Source: Stylophora pistillata (Eukaryota). From it: a DNA stretch of 64,000 nucleotides. The translations under genes were made by a program, and so were the position numbers. Below, in pieces: positions 40,458 through 49,700 of the stretch. Numbering within the stretch: the first letter of the stretch is position 1; every line of letters begins with the position of its first letter. The notes beneath the pieces were generated by a model, which was not told where the DNA came from, did no database searches, and was given only the letters and a program-made list of their open reading frames with translations. The stretch covers positions 197,995 to 261,994 of the forward strand of contig NW_019218169.1 in NCBI RefSeq assembly GCF_002571385.2. Direction: 5' to 3'.

Positions 40458-42217
40458 TTAGTAAACTACAGCATTAAGTGGATCAGCACGAATACTACTC
40501 AAATCTAGGTTAGAATCTGCTTCCTCATCTATTTCTCCTATGACAGCACTGAAAACAAATAAATTTCAAGACAGGTTTGATAACTTCATCTGTGCATCAA
40601 TTGGCAGCTTGCACACAAATAAAGCATCAGGCAAAGGATTTTCATTGTGCAGGAGGTTGCACCCTTAATGTCACCACAAGGAACAAACAGTTTGAGGGGT
40701 GGAGGAACTTGTGAGGAGCTTGCAAACTTGTGGAAGGTGCCCAGATTAATAAAACTCTGATAATGACTTTGATCAGGTAATTCAAATTTTATAAAGGCTG
40801 ATAGTTTCTAAAGAAACTGTTTGGGGCTGCGTCAGTGGGGGTAACAAAATAATTTGGATATATCAACAAAGTTGAAATGGTAAATTGACCACTGCAATGA
40901 TTACAAAAGCTGACGTTTCGAGCATTAGCCCTTCGTCAGAGCAAAGGGCTAACGCTCCAAACGTCAGCTTTTGTAATCATTACGGTGGCCAATTTACCAT
41001 TTCAACTACGTTGATATATCCAAATTATTCAAATTTTAATTACTCTTTACAAGATCAGGCCTTTACAACATCAGGCCTTTCCACCTGGAAGATAACCCTA
41101 CAAGATAAAAACTTGAGCAGTAAAAATACTTGTATAGGTAAGCATGGGATAAAGTTTTGTGGAGCCTTGATACTAAAAGTATCAACCTTTAATATGATAA
41201 TTGGCTTACATATTGTCTCCTCTTATGATGTAAAGACCCAGCATTACTTGCTCCACTCCACTCCCTGATGAGAACACTCTCTCATGGCTCTCATCCAAAA
41301 TTAAATTCACTGTCTGATCAAACCCTTTGAGGGTTCCCTGAAACAAGTCAACAAATAATTTCTGTAAAGAATTTTACCTACTCTTGAAAAAAAAAAATTG
41401 CTTCTAGTATAAAAAAGAGATGGTAAGGGTATAATTCGCTCTGACGAAGGGTACAATTCGTTCTGACGAAGGGCTAACGCTCGAAATGTCAGCTTTGAAA
41501 CTCTTTAGGGTGGCCAATTTTCGCCATCAACTCAGTTGATAAAACCCAAATTACCTTGTTTCTCTCACCGGTGGGAGTGCAATAAAACCAAAGCTGAACT
41601 TAACAATGGCAACTGCGATCGAGGACAAAGATACATAGGAGAGAACAAATGAGAACTAAAAGAAAAACAAGAAATATCGGTAGAAGAAGCAGAGGAATCA
41701 ACATCTCAGAAGCCTCGCAGTTCGCCAGTCGCCACCACCTAATGGAGTTATTACTGAAGTTACGATTGGTTTTACACTTTCAAAATACATAAAGTAATTT
41801 ACTGCATAATAATTATATACAAAATCTTACCACAATCATTCTTCCATCTTGTGTAATAACTGCTACGGTATCTATATTCTTGTGTTAAGAATGTATACTT
41901 TAACCCAGATCCAGACTTGCGCGTAAGAATGTACAAAGTGCTTTTCTGCCGAAGATCATCCTGCAGATTTCTCAACGCTGCAAATATTCTGAAACATCCC
42001 GTGCGCACATTGGCTAGGGGAACACGCGCGCTGAACAGAATTCGATGGTAGACTGAAAGTATACCAGATCAATCTGATTCAAACATATGCTACCTGAAAA
42101 AGCTATGTGTATTTTCAACCAGTGCATGGGACTCAAAGTAGATAATTTCGATTCTTAATGGAAGCGATTCAGTTTTCAAAGGATACGATTTACATACGTC
42201 TCCAAAGTTGCCGCCAT
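40458..42217 (-). CDS. LSM8: U6 snRNA-associated Sm-like protein LSm8, 96 aa, 4 exons
   Basis: Exons 42217-42187, 41871-41831, 41337-41210, 40548-40458 give MAATLETYVNHTVAVITQDGRMIVGTLKGFDQTVNLILDESHERVFSSGSGVEQVMLGLYIIRGDNIAVIGEIDEEADSNLDLSSIRADPLNAVVY; absent from the ORF track. Confidence 0.97.
40848..41029. mobile_element. Head-to-head pair of Penelope-like fragments forming a 180-bp palindrome
   Basis: AATAATTTGGATATATCAAC... mirrored by ...GTTGATATATCCAAATTATT; same family at ~34420-34530 and ~41433-41535. Confidence 0.7.
40909..40942 (-). ncRNA. Minimal type I hammerhead ribozyme motif (Penelope-type)
   Basis: Minus strand reads GCU-CUGACGA-A-GGGC-UAAU-GCUC-GAAA-C-GUC-AGC: CUGANGA and GAAA cores, stem II, GUC site, GCU/AGC stem I. 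Confidence 0.6.
41460..41493 (+). ncRNA. Second minimal hammerhead-like motif (variant GAAAUGUC)
   Basis: GTTCTGACGAAGGGCTAACGCTCGAAATGTCAGC, preceded by a partial CTGACGAAGGG duplicate. Confidence 0.45.
41872..42186 (-). other. U12-type (minor spliceosome) GT-AG intron 1 of LSM8
   Basis: 5' site GTATCCTTT; branch point TTCTTAAC about 14 nt before the 3' AG. Confidence 0.9.
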
Positions 42218-42365
42218 GTTGGAATGAGAATAATAGCTTTGTAGCCACTCCGTTTATTCTGGAGTAAAGGAAAGCTGCTGAGCATCCGAGCCTTTCAGTC
42301 ATCCCAGAACGAAGGCATAAACGAGAAGGCGCGATTTGACTTCAAAATTTCCTCTTCAGTTGGCA

Positions 42366-43412
42366 ATGGATGGCAGAAAGTGCTTCAAGTGTGGTAAGAC
42401 GGGTCACTTAAAGAGAGATTGCCCCGAAAAGGCAAGCCATAATTTGCAAAATGTGAAATGTTTTGCTTGTGGAAGGCACGGTCATTTTCGGAAGGACTGT
42501 CCCAACATGCTCACTTCTGAGAATACAGCTGACACCGCATCTGCGAGGCACTCAAAAAACTCTGCAAGTAGCCGGCAAATGGAGTTGCAGTTTCCAGTCA
42601 GCAAATCAATGTTTATTGATACTCACTGTCATTTAGAGTATGTTTTCGAAAGACTTAGACACACAGGAAGTTTGAAAGAGTTCCAGACAAGGTATTCCTT
42701 CCCACCAAATTTTGAGGGTTGCATCACAACATTTTGTGATCCCGCAGCTTTTTCGTCCTTTGGCACTTGGTGTGATGTACTTTCGCAAGAGAATGTTTGG
42801 GGAACATTTGGCTGTCATCCTCATAGTGCCAAATATTACAACGATGACTTGGAAGCCAAAATAATTCAGTGTTTGGATCATCCCAAAGCCATTGCCTTAG
42901 GTGAGGTTGGGCTTGATTACTCTTCACATTGCACATCTCCTCCTGAAGTTCAAAAAGAAGTGTTTACTAGACAAGCCAACTGGGCTGTCACACTAGGAAA
43001 ACCTTTGGTTGTCCATTGTCGTGATGCCGAAGCAGACACACTGGAAATACTTAAATCCTGTCTACCACAAGACTGGAAAATCCATTTGCATTGTTACACT
43101 GGATCAAGTGCATTTGCAACGAAATTTTTCCAACAATTTCCAAACCTTTTCATAGGAATGACAGCAGTGGTTACTTTTGGTAAAGCTACAAATATTCATG
43201 AACTTGCATTTGATGTGCCATTAGAAAAGCTATTACTGGAAACTGATGCACCATATTTTGTTCCATCACAAGTGGCTGATAAGCATAACAAGTTCAGCAA
43301 CCCTGGAATGGCAATATTTACTGCTCAGAGAATTGCAGAAATAAGGGGTGTTGCTTTAGAAGAGGTCCTTGAAACAGTTAGAAAGAACACTGCATATGTT
43401 TATGGTATTTAA
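42366..43412 (+). CDS. TATDN2: TATDN2-like TatD nuclease with two N-terminal CCHC zinc knuckles; intronless CDS
   Basis: CFKCGKTGHLKRDC and CFACGRHGHFRKDC, then FIDTHCHL, WGTFGCHPH, GEVGLDY, VHCR, HCYTG, ETDAPY (all metal ligands intact); first in-frame ATG at 42366. Confidence 0.9.
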   Translation: MDGRKCFKCGKTGHLKRDCPEKASHNLQNVKCFACGRHGHFRKDCPNMLTSENTADTASARHSKNSASSRQMELQFPVSKSMFIDTHCHLEYVFERLRHTGSLKEFQTRYSFPPNFEGCITTFCDPAAFSSFGTWCDVLSQENVWGTFGCHPHSAKYYNDDLEAKIIQCLDHPKAIALGEVGLDYSSHCTSPPEVQKEVFTRQANWAVTLGKPLVVHCRDAEADTLEILKSCLPQDWKIHLHCYTGSSAFATKFFQQFPNLFIGMTAVVTFGKATNIHELAFDVPLEKLLLETDAPYFVPSQVADKHNKFSNPGMAIFTAQRIAEIRGVALEEVLETVRKNTAYVYGI

Positions 43413-43768
43413 TCTGAGAATAGAAATGGTGTGATGTTAATTTAATAGATAGTAATTAATTTAGGTTTTACCACAGCACTTGTGGGGTAAGAGGGATTGA
43501 TCATACACAGAGGAAATTATCTGTTCCTCAACTCAAACTCTTTAAATGTAGCATTCTTTAGCTCTTCTCTTTTAAAGATTGGTAAGAGAATGTGCATTGT
43601 AAAAAATCAAAATCAAACTCAAATATTTTTCCAGTGCATTTTATTGGATACATAACTGAGCTTACATATTTTTAAAATCTACATGTATGCTGTGAATTTT
43701 ATTTTGTATGAAATATTTGACTGTGATCTTTGAAGGTATAGATAAAAAATTTAGGATTTTGGTATTCT

Positions 43769-46602
43769 TTAGGAAGATTTTTTCCTTGCAAATGCCAGGC
43801 CATACTTTAAAACAGGAAGAAATGACAATGCCAATAAAAAACACAATCCAAAGAAATGCTGGTAACCAGTAATATCTACTAGTATCCCAGATAAGGAAAT
43901 CATCAACAATTTGCCCAGCACTTCTGATGTAGCAAGAACAGCACAGTGTGTTGCTTTAGTACCAGGTAAAGAATCTTGTGAACTTTGCATCATGAGTGTG
44001 AATGTTGCTGTTGTGATTATTCCACCACTTAGTTGAATGAAACATTCAATGATTGCAATTCCAGATTTAGTAAATTGTGTTAAGGACAACAACCAAAGTG
44101 AGAGAAGTGGTACGAGTCTTGCATATGAAGTCCATATGAGTACTTCAATCACCCATGACCTTAAATTCAAAATTAAAACAGAGCTTCTTCAATATTGAGT
44201 GCAGTTGATGCAGTGTCTAATACAAAATCAAGTAACTACTATTTATTAATTATTGACCACTTTCAAAAATGGCTGCCGGATTAATATTCTTTTGTTTAAA
44301 TTTAAATTAGCCTTTCTGGCCTTGCTTGAGATGATGTATTCTTTTGAATTTTGTACTGGAAAACGAGGCCAAAAAGGCTAATTCAAATGTAAACAAAAGA
44401 ACATTAATCCAGCAGCCATTTATGAAAGTGGTCAACTGTCTACTTGCAAACTGCAGTAAAAATATACAATTGTTGAAAGTGACTAAGGGCTTTTAACAGA
44501 TAAATGTCTTAAAAAGTTTCTGAAGTCTTGTAGTATGCCATAGTAGAATAATGAATGAAGATAAACACTTTCCTCAACTCTCAAGAATTCATTTCATTTC
44601 CATTCTAATTTTTACATATTACCATAATAGTTACTCTTTGTTTACTGTTGACATACCACTCAATTCCACACATCTGTTTTGATTAATATTTGTTATTTTG
44701 TGACCTTTCTGAGGAGAGTATGTTAGGCATTAATTTTAATGTCCTCTGTCCCCCATAGAGCGAGTCCGAAAAAGGGTGCTTAATATAATTTACCCTGAGG
44801 CTGAGTCATATTCATATGCCTTACAGCTAGGTAAATTAGATAGGCTAGATGACAGAAGAGTAGACCTGTGCTATAAATACGTGGCAAAAATGAAGTCCCC
44901 CAGGCACCCACTGCATCATCTGCTCCCCAGCTCACTCCTACACGCACCTAATTACGACTTACAACACAAAAGTACTATCTCTTCTGAAACATTCAGATAT
45001 GTAGGACAAAGAGAATGGAGGACTTCTTTACATTTAAATATTTTAAATGATTGAATTGTTATTATCATTGTTATAGTCATTACCTTTTAGTTTTTGGATA
45101 ATAGTTGCCTCAAGATTGTAAAATACACTCGATAATTCAGGTCTTTTACTGCCAGAGAGTTTAATAAACTAGTCATTCATTCATTCATTCATTCATTCTT
45201 TGTTGTTACTATAGAATGTCATTCAAATGAGACAGAACATTATACAGATGTTAGTTATAAGTTAAACATTCACAATATACCTGTTTGCATAATGCAGACT
45301 AACAATCCAGCCTCCTAAGGTTGAACCAGCTATTGAGAACAATTGACCAAATATTCCAACTATAACTCCTACTTGTTCTTGAGGGACTCTTTGATCAATC
45401 AGATACAAAGGCAGCATGCTAACAACACCTTGCTCGCCTAATTTGTATGTCATAACACAGAACATCAGCCATGAGAAGTCAACAGTTGTAATAGTAGTTC
45501 TGATATACTGTAGAGGACTAAGCTTGCCACTTGTATTATCATTTGTGACTGAAGTAGATGAACATAACTGATGTCCTTTAATTCCTTGATTCTCTAATGA
45601 AGTTGCTTTTGTTGCTTCATTTTGTAAACAGGTTCTATTGTTAATGTTGATTGATGAGATGATTAATATGACAGTGTAAAAAGAGCCCCAGAGAGTGAAC
45701 AGCCATTCCCAGCTGCAGTATGCACTGAGCCAAGAAAGAATACCTCCACCAAATAATGCACCCACCTTGTAACCAACCACTTGTAGTGTGCTTCCCTTTC
45801 CTGGAAATGGAACAAAATGTTACCCTTGTGACTAGCAGTATTACAACTGGTTGTAGGGGTCTTGTAAGGTCACAAACTGTTCTTGATGACTCAAACAACA
45901 TTTTAACAAATTCAGAAGGATTTTCCTCTAAGGTTACATCCCATATTTACCAAAGAGGGAGGGAGTTCTGTGAGTTACCTTGCATGCACAAATGGAACAA
46001 TACAGGTGACACTTTAACATGTACCACTCAATATGAAAATGTTGTCCTGAACAGTACTCAAAAATTCTTCAAGAAGGCAGTAGTTTAAAGCTAACATTTT
46101 GGAAAGAGACACCAACCTTCTTTCCTAGATCTTGTAAGTGAAAATTCAATTTTATTTCATACTTTTTCAGAATCATTTTGCATTAATTGAACTCTTTAAT
46201 TTAACTTGTCAATGTCTCCTCACCAAGATCTGCAGGTTTTAGCAGGCTAATTGCGTAGGCATCCACTGCAACATCCTGTACAGCAGATGTTACGTTCATC
46301 CATAACACGCAAAAGAGAATTAAATAAGTATTGTATTCTCCAACCCAGGCTGACGTAAAGCAAATCAGGGCCATGGCGAAAGAGCCCAAAGTAATCCAAG
46401 AGTTGAAAGACCATAAATTATCAATCAAAGGGGCTATCATGAATTTGAAGATCCATGGTACACTTAAGAGGCGGCTAAGGCCTACCTTTGACAATGAAAA
46501 GTTATGTTTCCTAAGAAGCAAAGGTAGAAGTTTTACTTGAAAGCCATAAGGCAATCCTTGTCCGAAATATAAAAGAAACAACAAACCATCAAGGTTCGCC
46601 AT
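43769..46602 (-). CDS. MFSD3: Major facilitator superfamily domain-containing protein 3 (AmpG/SLC33-like), 3 exons
   Basis: Exons 46602-46224, 45800-45281, 44159-43769; LYFGQGLPYGFQ, PWIFKFMIAPLID, SAVQDVAVDA, QVVGYKVG, TYKLGEQG, TTATFTLMM, LATSEVLGKL. Confidence 0.9.
44253..44435. mobile_element. Palindromic MITE
   Basis: TTGACCACTTTCAAAAATGGCTGC ... GCAGCCATTTATGAAAGTGGTCAA. Confidence 0.75.
44752..45198 (+). mobile_element. LINE (CR1/L2-like) 3' fragment with (CATT)n tail
   Basis: ERVRKRVLNIIYP...RRVDLC...HPLHHLLP, then AATAAA and (CATT)n. Confidence 0.75.
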
Positions 46603-46771
46603 TTTGAAAAGCGAAAAGGACTTTGTGGCCAGGCCATATGTACACGGAACGGCTCCACAGCCACCAGTTCGAATGTTTTCAACTTGCAAACTTATTTCGC
46701 AAGCTTAATTGTTTTCTTTTCTGCTCCTGGGAATGCGTTACGAACACTACTAGTAAAGACTGGGTTTCATT

Positions 46772-49700
46772 ATGTATTCTTTATCAAGAGTTGCTCTCCG
46801 CAGAAGTCTTCTCCCATGTTATGAAGTGTCAAAACCCTTGAATTCTCTTCTGAGATTTCAGAAAATCGAAGCAGTTTCTGACAGCAGCAGGGATCATGAA
46901 TCCGCAACTCCTGGAGCGAGACCCTTCGAAGACATCCCTGGACGCCCCAAAAACTTAAGATCGATCGCAGAGTCTTACTGGAAAACTAAAGGATTCACTA
47001 AAGGATACAAATTGTGGGATGAACTGTTTCAAAAATATGGCCCCATTTTCAAGGAGTTCGCTGTGATAGGTACACACTCTGTGCACCTTATTGATCCTGT
47101 TGATCAAGAAAAGGCTCTACGTGCTGAAGGAAAATATCCCTCCAGACTAATTGTTGATTTTTGGTTGGAACATCGACAACGAAGAAATTACTTCCCTGGC
47201 ATTGTGCTCTTGTAAGTCACGATTTTTTATGTGTCCAAAACCGTTTTACACTTTGCGTGACATGACGGCGGTATCACCATTTTTGCGTGGTGGAAGGGGG
47301 CCAAGACATGAAGTCTTACTACCAATTAAACAAAACCTAAACAAAGTTTGAGAAAAAATATAGGGTATCTGTCAGACGTTTTCTTAAATTTTGCTGTAGT
47401 TGTATTTATCAAATGCACAGCTGAGTCAGGAGGACAAACAAACACTGACAGAGAAATAGCTGGCGTGATTTAAGAATATTATCTCGCTCAATTAGTTTGC
47501 AACATTTTTTTGTGAATCTGATAGGGAAGGAGAGGAGTGGTACAGAGTGCGACACAGTGTGGCTCCAAAAATAATGCGTCCAAAGATTATGGAGGAGAAC
47601 ATTGATAACTTTACTGCTGTAACAAATGATGCTATTGCAAGGCTTGCCAAACTAAAGGAAGAATGTGGACCTGATGGATACATTCCAGACTTGGAGGAGG
47701 AACTTAGTAAATGGGCTACAGAGAGTAAGTCAATTTAAACTGATTATACTTGAAATAAATGTGAGTGATCTGTGACCTTAAATGTGGTTTAAGTGAAGTT
47801 TCATGGGAAGTAGGAGAGAGATGGTACAACCTCAGCAAAAGTGATCATGGAGCATTTCTTCTTTGCTGACCAGTCATTTTACTCATTACAAGGTTCAGAG
47901 CCATCTAGTAGAGGGCACTGAAATATATGCACAGAAAAGGTTGATCTTCATATGCTGATTACAGTTCAGTGATAAGGAATGTGGGTCACCAGATTTGATT
48001 TTGAGTTCAGGGTTGAGTTCAGAGCCACATAAAGGAAGAGTACAGAGTGTTTCTCAGGGGCTAGCTGTATTGTTGCAAAAACTGGTCACCTAATTTTTTT
48101 AAAAAGAATGCAGGAATATATAGAATTTTCTGATGAATCAAATGTGAATGTGTGGATCAGTTATGATAAAAAAATTGATATTGTACCCAAACATAGATAA
48201 ATGTTACACTTGACTGTCAAAGCTATCAATAAGATGATATCTGCCCCTCTCATCACCAAAGCAAACCTAAGAAAATTGCAAAAAGAGAAAGTCTGGGAAG
48301 GGTTATAAAGCCATCCTATTCCAAATGGGCTGTCACATTTGGCAAAAGCTGACCAGGACCTGGGAATGTGCTTAATATAATATGTGCCTAACAAAATGAG
48401 CTGTGCTCAGCTGCTAGAGGTTGTAAGGTGGATCTGCAAGGCAGAATGGGATCATAGGCTGACCAACTTCTGTAATATGCAGCTACTAGTGATAAAAGCC
48501 ATTTGTGGTAATGAAAAATGTGGCCTTTTTCTCTCATTAATGAGAACATGAAACAATGACAAAAATTGGGCCTTGGGTCATGAGATGGGAAGCGGGATAA
48601 GAGGTGGTGAGGTGGATGTTAGCTGATAGAATGAGACTTTCTCTCAGCAAGATTTTGACCAATGAGTGTTGTTTTTGCTCATGGATTTATTCATTTTAAA
48701 TTTATGTTTTGATTGAAATAGTAATTTAACATTCTCTATATAATTTTTCAAGGTGTGGGAACACTTGCATTTGATTCTCGCCTGGGGCTTTATGAAGACC
48801 CTCCCAAGGAAGAAGCCATGCGATTCATCACAGAGGTTCATAACTTCTTCTCAATCAGCCATAAGTTATTTTTTAGTGTATCAAGGAGAATTGCTAAGAA
48901 CTTCAACATTGATACACCATTACTGAAGAAATTCTTCAAAACTGCTGATGCCCTTATAGAAATTGGGGAAGGTTTTGTGGATAAGAAGATGAGAGAATTA
49001 AAAGAAATGTCAGATAAAGAAATTGACCCCTCTGGCAACACTCAAGGCAAGTATTCAGTTAGATATCTCTTTGAAACTGATTTATGAATGTATATGATTA
49101 TTACATAGTGTTGTATATAAGTCTATGAGTGTGTAATTGAAATAAATGACAACTGCAGCAGTTTGTGTACATTGAACATTATGATTATCTTTGAAATGAT
49201 TTAAAAGAATATAATCACTACTTAATTCCCAACTTTTCTTCAATCATTTTCATCTATCATTGTCTAACTGTCTTTTATTTTCTTGCAGTTGTTCCATTGT
49301 TGACCTACCTGCTCACAAAGAAGGAACTGACTCCTCAAGAGGTTGTGGGTGTTGTTCTTGATGTTGTGGGCGCAGGAGTTGATACAGTTAGTGACATCAT
49401 AATGTTTCTTTCAATTTAACAACATGAGTAGAAAAATGTGAAGTGTTTTCCTGTTGGTAGATATAGTGTTCCTAAGTACTGTTTCCAGGGTTGCTAATAA
49501 GCAACATTAACCCTTCAAATCAGAGGATACAGAATATGAGTACAACTTAATCCTTCAACCCCCAAATTTTATTAACTTGTGACTCATCCAAGCAATTCCT
49601 TCAAGTTGTCCAGAAAACAGGTTATATGCAAACAGACAAGCTCATTGGCTAGGGGTTGTTATCTTGAAATCTCCAATCTGATTAACAAGGAAGTGTGTAG

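What the first reader, a model, noticed from the sequence alone, without database searches (positions are those of the whole stretch)
42366..43412. Zinc-knuckle-TatD fusion nuclease, intronless, head-to-head with LSM8
Two nucleocapsid/CNBP-type CX2CX4HX4C knuckles sit directly before an intact TATDN2-type domain, whereas human TATDN2 has, as I recall, a long low-complexity N-terminus and several exons. Knuckles bind single-stranded nucleic acid and TATDN2 is reported to degrade R-loop RNA, so this may be an RNA-targeted nuclease for surveillance or retroelement defence. No introns suggests retroposition or Gag-knuckle capture. An acceptor-like TTCCTCTTCAG just upstream allows for an extra 5' exon.
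Basis: partly seen in the sequence, partly recalled or inferred. Interest (0 to 1): 0.7.

Follow-up and report, generated by a model that had tools for sequence, protein, structure and literature searches.

The report
Ancient zinc-knuckle form of TATDN2 nuclease
This is a coral's single copy of TATDN2, a gene whose human version removes RNA from R-loops; it carries two zinc knuckles also found in sponge, cnidarian and some protist versions but not in the bilaterian ones examined, so it is likely the old form of the enzyme and not a recent fusion.

Summary
42366-43412 (+) is an intact 348-aa ORF: two CX2CX4HX4C knuckles, a variable linker and a TatD barrel with all TATDN2 metal ligands. Its ATG lies 148 bp from that of a four-exon LSM8 on the other strand. 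RNA contigs of 8 of 8 runs laid cover the ORF with no splice joint (unstranded), so the extra 5' exon is unsupported. It is the only TATDN2-type gene found in this coral genome, and its Pocillopora relative (91%) is already named TATDN2. The architecture is old: 112 of the 120 closest relatives carry knuckles (corals, octocorals, sponges). Knuckled forms also occur in a choanoflagellate record, two euglenozoans and Pelomyxa, often beside RGG boxes, while 0 of 134 named bilaterian relatives have one. A sponge-like genomic contig also has an intronless TatD domain, with LSM8 as its neighbour (tail to tail). Recent retroposition or Gag capture is therefore rejected. Best reading: the knuckles do the substrate-tethering job that the disordered N-terminus does in human TATDN2. 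No paper describing this architecture was found. It is a known family with an apparently undescribed ancestral variant, and a compact model for a protein with no solved structure.

The parts
42366..43412 (+). TATDN2 orthologue, single-exon coding sequence, 348 aa
   Evidence: no splice joint in 8 of 8 runs laid
42381..42422 (+). Zinc knuckle 1 (residues 6-19, CX2CX4HX4C)
   Evidence: ligands kept in 31 of 33 aligned rows
42459..42500 (+). Zinc knuckle 2 (residues 32-45)
   Evidence: ligands kept in 33 of 33 rows
42504..42605 (+). Variable linker (residues 47-80), predicted disordered at 49-68
   Evidence: mean identity 0.16 against 0.62-0.69 for the knuckles and 0.59 for TatD; pLDDT under 50
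42615..43403 (+). TatD TIM-barrel domain, class II (HxH): H87, H89, E180, H217, H242, E292, D294, plus TATDN2-type C124 and C243
   Evidence: Foldseek to S. aureus TatD 6l25, TM (target) 0.90
42218..42365 (.). 148-bp stretch between the two start codons, holding both 5' UTRs and a likely shared promoter; TTCCTCTTCAG (42350-42360) lies inside unspliced RNA contigs
   Evidence: contigs of three studies begin at 42303, 42305 and 42315, those of others run on into LSM8 exon 1
40458..42217 (-). LSM8, four coding exons: 42217-42187, 41871-41830, 41336-41210, 40548-40458
43769..46704 (-). Downstream convergent MFS transporter gene (the label MFSD3-like is recalled); its 3' end runs towards the TATDN2 3' UTR
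   Evidence: Pfam MFS_1 and Acatn; joints 44157>45279 and 45799>46223

Best explanation
This is the coral's single TATDN2 gene, an intact two-knuckle TatD protein in a form shared with sponges, other cnidarians and some protists, and it likely works as a metal-dependent 3'-to-5' RNA nuclease whose knuckles would hold single-stranded nucleic acid, such as the RNA or the displaced strand of an R-loop, while the barrel cuts. Shown: orthology to TATDN2, intact ligands, conservation of the knuckles, RNA coverage without splicing, single copy. Inferred: (1) the knuckles bind unpaired nucleic acid, as CCHC knuckles of Air2, TUT4/7 and nucleocapsids do (established knowledge); (2) a flexible linker of about 35 residues lets them tether the barrel to the substrate; (3) the two-metal site (H87, H89, E180, H217, H242, E292, D294) hydrolyses RNA as in human TATDN2; (4) the bilaterian stem lost the knuckles, and a long disordered N-terminus took over substrate binding.
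For: The TatD domain is 45-53% identical to the long relatives (E down to 1e-93 leaving aside one two-domain protein), against E 2e-30 for YcfH and 4e-13 / 2.5e-12 for human TATDN3 / TATDN1. A fish TATDN2 finds this locus at E 8e-87 and nothing else under 0.005 in the genome. Human E593, E705, D707, C538 and C656 (PMC10711561) map through mouse to E180, E292, D294, C124 and C243, all present. In human TATDN2, removing the N-terminus abolished detectable R-loop binding and cut activity about 7-fold (PMC10711561, passages), so the bare barrel needs a binding arm. Knuckles are kept at 0.62-0.69 identity against 0.16 for the linker. Protist relatives put RGG-rich stretches next to the knuckle (P0364, P0434, P0436), and one has a CCCH finger instead (P0351). 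Bilaterian rows form one knuckle-free clade, 100/98.
Against: No assay exists for any knuckled TATDN2. The R-loop activity rests on one human biochemical study and one medaka knockout. TATDN1 and TATDN3 are DNA AP-endo/3'-exonucleases (PMC10085689), and knuckles can bind single-stranded DNA as well. Nuclear location was not tested. The base of the animal part of the tree is unresolved, so loss in Bilateria rests on distribution and single copy, not on a resolved nesting. Several protist and fungal TATDN2 rows have no knuckle (Cavenderia, Ambispora; only a remnant in Mastigamoeba), nor does Mnemiopsis, so independent gains are possible. The RNA contigs are unstranded.
Confidence: 0.6

Rival explanations
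1. The same orthologue, but mainly a DNA-repair or DNA-clearing enzyme (AP endonuclease and ssDNA 3' exonuclease, like TATDN1/3); the knuckles would bind single-stranded DNA.
For: These activities are general for TatD, including class II TATDN3 and E. coli YcfH/YjjV (PMC10085689, passages). The fold matches DNase-type TatD structures. Human TATDN2 lacking its N-terminus nicks catenated DNA better (PMC10711561).
Against: The orthologue that was tested prefers R-loop RNA. RGG boxes and a CCCH finger in relatives point to RNA.
Confidence: 0.2
2. An RNA-surveillance 3' exonuclease for free RNAs (oligo-U-tailed or U6-type ends, or retroelement RNA), functionally tied to its neighbour LSM8.
For: LSM8 is the direct neighbour both here and in a sponge-like contig, L020. 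The best solved-structure hits of the knuckle pair are TUT7, Air2 and TUT4, narrowly ahead of nucleocapsids.
Against: The synteny rests on one contig, and the orientation differs (tail to tail), so a shared promoter is not conserved. No LSM8 hit was found in the short flanks of octocoral-like L019. The scores do not separate knuckle kinds. Nothing links the gene to retroelements.
Confidence: 0.15
3. A lineage-specific retrocopy of TATDN2 that captured knuckles from a Gag gene.
For: The gene has no introns, while two other TatD genes of this genome match in exon-sized pieces. The knuckles resemble nucleocapsid knuckles.
Against: No parent copy was found. There is no A-run of 8 or more in 42201-44000. 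The architecture occurs in sponges, octocorals and protists. The TatD domain is intronless in genomic L020. Only a very old event, before sponges and cnidarians split, remains possible.
Confidence: 0.03

Closest known systems
Human / vertebrate TATDN2 (3'-5' RNA nuclease, R-loop resolution)
   Same: Orthologous TatD domain; HxH motif, the three acidic ligands and both TATDN2-type cysteines are kept.
   Different: 348 aa against 761 aa (human); two CCHC knuckles instead of a long disordered N-terminus; one coding exon, where medaka tatdn2 has at least four (PMC12709183, passage).
Database 'putative deoxyribonuclease TATDN2' of Pocillopora verrucosa, Montipora foliosa, Dendronephthya gigantea, Oscarella lobularis, Halichondria panicea
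   Same: Same two-knuckle + TatD layout, 41-91% identity.
   Different: Nothing of substance; these are automatic names, and I found no study of them.
TATDN1, TATDN3, bacterial TatD / YcfH / YjjV
   Same: TIM-barrel fold and metal site.
   Different: Much more distant (E 1e-12 to 1e-30); the solved chains (246-401 aa) matched only the TatD part; tested mainly as DNases.
CCHC-knuckle RNA factors (Air2, TUT4/7, CNBP) and retroviral nucleocapsids
   Same: CX2CX4HX4C with an aromatic residue after the first Cys (F or Y in 240 knuckles of the near set; the other listed residues total 11).
   Different: Here they are joined to a TatD nuclease; sequence alone cannot tell a cellular from a Gag origin.

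Membership tests
TatD family (PF01026) | Full TatD domain above the Pfam cut-off; TIM-barrel fold | tested here: met
   201.5 bits against a cut-off of 27; model pLDDT 89, Foldseek E 2.5e-21 to 6l25
TatD class II (TATDN2/TATDN3) | N-terminal HxH motif | tested here: met
   D85-T-H87-C-H89, 33 of 33 rows; definition from PMC10085689
TATDN2 orthologue | Groups with vertebrate TATDN2; best match in the genome | tested here: met
   (the trees held no TATDN1/3 rows; those were separated by E-value only)
TATDN2 orthologue | Catalytic E593, E705, D707 and the cysteines C538, C656 | tested here: met
   E180, E292, D294, C124, C243, mapped through mouse with a 39-residue offset that fitted 5 of 5 positions
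TATDN2 as described in the papers read | Long disordered N-terminal region | tested here: not met
   80-residue N-terminus with two knuckles; this marks a variant, not a different family
TATDN2 orthologue | Mg-dependent degradation of R-loop RNA; nuclear location | not testable with these tools
   needs assay and imaging
Processed retrocopy | Intron-bearing parent in the genome, poly(A) remnant, restricted range | tested here: not met
   target-site duplications were not looked for
Domesticated Gag | Capsid or other Gag sequence beside the knuckles; knuckles closer to Gag than to cellular proteins | tested here: not met
   no capsid family in Pfam, Gag-type knuckle model only at E 0.86; cellular and viral knuckles score alike

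The most novel reading that the evidence does not exclude
TATDN2 began early in eukaryotes as a knuckle- and RGG-guided RNA 3' exonuclease of RNA surveillance, kept beside LSM8 from sponges to corals because it acts on the same oligo-U or U6-type RNA ends; the R-loop enzyme of bilaterians is a derived form that swapped the knuckles for a disordered arm.
Probability: 0.12. Interest if true: 0.7.

Novelty: new variant of a known kind. Interest (0 to 1): 0.38.

Why it matters
Human TATDN2 is a proposed drug target in BRCA1-deficient cancer and is needed by fish germ cells, yet no TATDN2 chain came up in the PDB searches and one group could not obtain it soluble (PMC10085689). Its substrate arm is a long disordered region. 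The 348-aa coral form puts two small folded modules in that place, which gives a compact model for structure and for asking how TATDN2 picks RNA. It also shifts the family's history: PMC10711561 ties the N-terminus to larger genomes, whereas a nucleic-acid-binding N-terminus seems to predate animals. As a locus, though, this is an ordinary conserved gene.

Tried and rejected
Extra 5' exon: six GT dinucleotides lie between the LSM8 ATG and the AG, none is used in the 8 runs laid, and most coral relatives start at the same Met. Second TATDN2 paralogue: none in three genome searches; C404 and C79 are other, split TatD genes, C128 is a weak fragment that I did not identify, and C4186 is a 1.3-kb contig with a bacterial-looking TatD piece. 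Protein Atlas: first hit 0.87, below the useful level, and no usable hit for residues 1-130; not used. Metagenome scan: only 2 of 80 loci were eukaryotic TATDN2-like; a third at 39% (L021) is bacterial by its gene content. Expression level and strand cannot be read from contigs; no raw-read run was offered. Four listed runs held next to none of the words, which is no evidence of absence. Earlier findings of this scan: none. No complex fold with LSM8 was run, as binding is not claimed. The AU test was not run. Literature searches without a description of the architecture: TATDN2 + zinc knuckle, TatD + zinc knuckle, TatD + zf-CCHC (0 papers each); TatD + CCHC + nuclease (2 unrelated proteomes); LSM8 + microsynteny (17 listings, none on this pair by title or abstract start); (listed rows hold no TatD/TATDN2).

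Full report
Observation. The ORF runs from ATG 42366 to TAA 43412, 348 aa. Pfam finds two zf-CCHC stretches and a full TatD_DNase domain. An AlphaFold model built on a 33-row alignment has mean pLDDT 89, a confident barrel, moderate knuckles and a disordered stretch at 49-68; Foldseek matches the barrel to bacterial and human TatD structures. On the minus strand a four-exon gene starts 148 bases away; its exons give a 96-aa protein, and exon 3 hits LSm8 best. The host is a stony coral: the closest named protein is Pocillopora verrucosa 'putative deoxyribonuclease TATDN2', 91% identical over the full length.

Expression and gene structure. Of 24 runs listed, 20 hold the stretch. I laid 8: four polyA RNA runs of two studies and four guessed-RNA runs of four studies. 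All are assembled contigs, so strand and level cannot be read. The three LSM8 introns are spliced out in 4 of 4 runs, and in X4 and X5 two intron bins have zero depth, so these are not DNA. All 8 runs cover the ORF and none has a joint between 42187 and 44000. Contigs of three studies begin at 42303-42315, some 50-60 bases before the ATG, a weak hint of the start site; four others run on into LSM8 exon 1. The TTCCTCTTCAG is therefore read as part of the 5' UTR. Caveat: contigs also run into the last exon of the convergent MFS gene, so some cover could be its 3' UTR; minus-strand polyA signals at 43640 and 43698 make read-through over the whole ORF less likely.

Identity. The TatD domain is 45-53% identical to the 120 best of 288 long relatives, whose named members are bilaterian TATDN2 or uncharacterised bilaterian proteins, far closer than to YcfH, TATDN1 or TATDN3. 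Three searches of the genome found one TATDN2-type locus; the assembly has 5513 contigs and may be incomplete. The residues named in PMC10711561 map to E180, E292, D294, C124 and C243. The histidines and acids are invariant in 33 rows, the cysteines kept in 31 and 32.

Range of the architecture. Of the 120 best of 2329 near-length hits, 112 have at least one strict knuckle, most often two (84), up to eight. Of the 8 without, five begin with what looks like the tail of a knuckle and one is a partial record. The query itself holds knuckles, which favours knuckled hits. Named carriers: Pocillopora, Montipora, Dendronephthya, the Paramuricea cluster, Oscarella, Halichondria, and Hydra with one degenerate knuckle that Pfam misses. 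A profile search of 1.84 billion representatives (best 150 seen) and name look-ups for 20 of them added Salpingoeca urceolata (two knuckles), the euglenozoans Ploeotia and Flectonema (one each) and Mastigamoeba (a remnant); one search added Pelomyxa schiedti (one). Ploeotia, Pelomyxa and unnamed relatives carry RGG-rich stretches before the knuckle. Against a uniform picture: Mnemiopsis, Cavenderia, Ambispora and many unnamed protist-like rows have none; one row has a CCCH finger and one a UBA domain. Among named bilaterian rows, 0 of 109 (searched with the TatD part alone) and 0 of 25 more have a knuckle; most are vertebrates, so they are not independent.

Trees of the TatD domain only (knuckles left out): 107 rows, quick, and 56 of those, with bootstraps, rooted on bacterial rows. 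The 13 bilaterian-like rows (9 named, 4 assigned from the first tree) form one clade, 100/98. The query sits with Montipora and other hexacoral-like rows. Ploeotia, Flectonema and one unnamed row form a clade, 100/97, next to the animal group (94/87). The animal base is a polytomy. S. urceolata falls beside octocorals at 93/78, so misplacement or contamination of that transcriptome record is not excluded. Three N-truncated rows (P0037, L020, P0303) were labelled knuckled by assumption and left uncounted, where the label needs six changes on the larger tree. Simplest reading: knuckles were present before sponges and cnidarians split and were lost on the bilaterian stem; a much older origin is plausible but not shown.

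Introns and neighbours. L020 is genomic, as it holds LSM8 with three introns at the positions seen in the coral (read from the sequence). It groups with Halichondria (99/98) and carries an uninterrupted 288-aa TatD frame, its 5' end cut off by the contig end. LSM8 ends 170 bases from its stop, tail to tail. LSM8 is thus the direct neighbour in both a coral and a sponge-like genome, in different orientation. Chance adjacency is unlikely (about 2 in 20,000, assuming that many genes), but this is one contig, and L019 (octocoral-like, complete single-frame gene, only about 200 and 340 bases of flank) gave no LSM8 hit. Lack of introns is old; it does not mark a recent retrocopy.

Mechanism. Human TATDN2 degrades the RNA of R-loops from the 3' end with Mg; E593A and E705A are dead; the 490-761 fragment shows no detectable binding and about 7-fold less activity. 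Medaka tatdn2 loss raises R-loops and kills germ cells. The coral protein keeps that active site and has, in place of the disordered arm, two conserved knuckles on a fast-changing linker (identity 0.69 / 0.62 against 0.16). That CCHC knuckles bind unpaired nucleic acid is established knowledge (recalled; the nearest solved knuckles are of TUT7, Air2, TUT4 and nucleocapsids). I infer a tethered RNA 3' nuclease, most likely on R-loops (0.6); a DNA-directed role (0.2) and free-RNA surveillance linked to LSM8 (0.15) stay open.

Literature. PMC10085689: passages and a term search of its one held supplement (no hits). PMC10711561: passages ('knuckle' and 'CCHC' 0 times); supplements not searched. 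PMC12709183: abstract, outline, passages and its one held supplement (no hits). These describe TATDN2 with an extended or disordered N-terminus. All other papers were seen as search listings only. The library lacks most subscription journals, figures in supplements cannot be read, and domain databases already show PF00098 + PF01026 for these proteins, so the architecture is on record even if undiscussed.

Verdict. Real, intact and covered by RNA; a member of the TATDN2 family in its sponge-cnidarian form. Interest 0.38.

Noticed in passing
L020:27-2870: Sponge-like contig with intronless TATDN2 and LSM8 tail to tail, 170 bases apart: a possible ancient microsynteny with the coral pair.
   Followed up: partly
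proteins P0351, P0407, P0437: Other TATDN2-like proteins carry a CCCH finger, a UBA-like domain or an RGG stretch alone at the N-terminus, suggesting repeated swapping of the targeting arm.
   Followed up: partly
proteins P0028, P0049, P0172, P0289: Sponge-like relatives have expanded the knuckles to 6-8 copies.
   Followed up: no
window 43400-46704: The convergent MFS gene shows two acceptor choices (45799>46223 and 45799>46485) and RNA cover across its last intron; 3' UTRs likely overlap with TATDN2.
   Followed up: partly
window 40790-41010, 41440-41560 and 44250-44440: Short high-copy dispersed repeats inside LSM8 and MFS introns, with contig depth in the thousands to hundreds of thousands in the RNA runs.
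   Followed up: no
window 46757-49419 (+): Cytochrome P450 gene, head to head with the MFS gene (weak Pfam p450 hit on the first ORF).
   Followed up: no
window 44740-45054 (-): Frame that looks like the C-terminal remnant of a non-LTR retroelement inside the MFS intron (recalled likeness, untested).
   Followed up: no
G000:C404:61315-63617 (L009-L011): A three-piece TatD gene with a TGN motif, distinct from the TATDN1-like gene on C79; possibly a fourth, bacterial-TatD-like paralogue in corals.
   Followed up: no
G000:C4186 (L003): 1.3-kb contig with a bacterial-looking TatD piece; likely contamination of the assembly.
   Followed up: no
L021:4048-4839: A bacterial TatD that branches closer to eukaryotic TATDN2 than the other bacterial rows (100/100); a lead on the donor lineage.
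   Followed up: no
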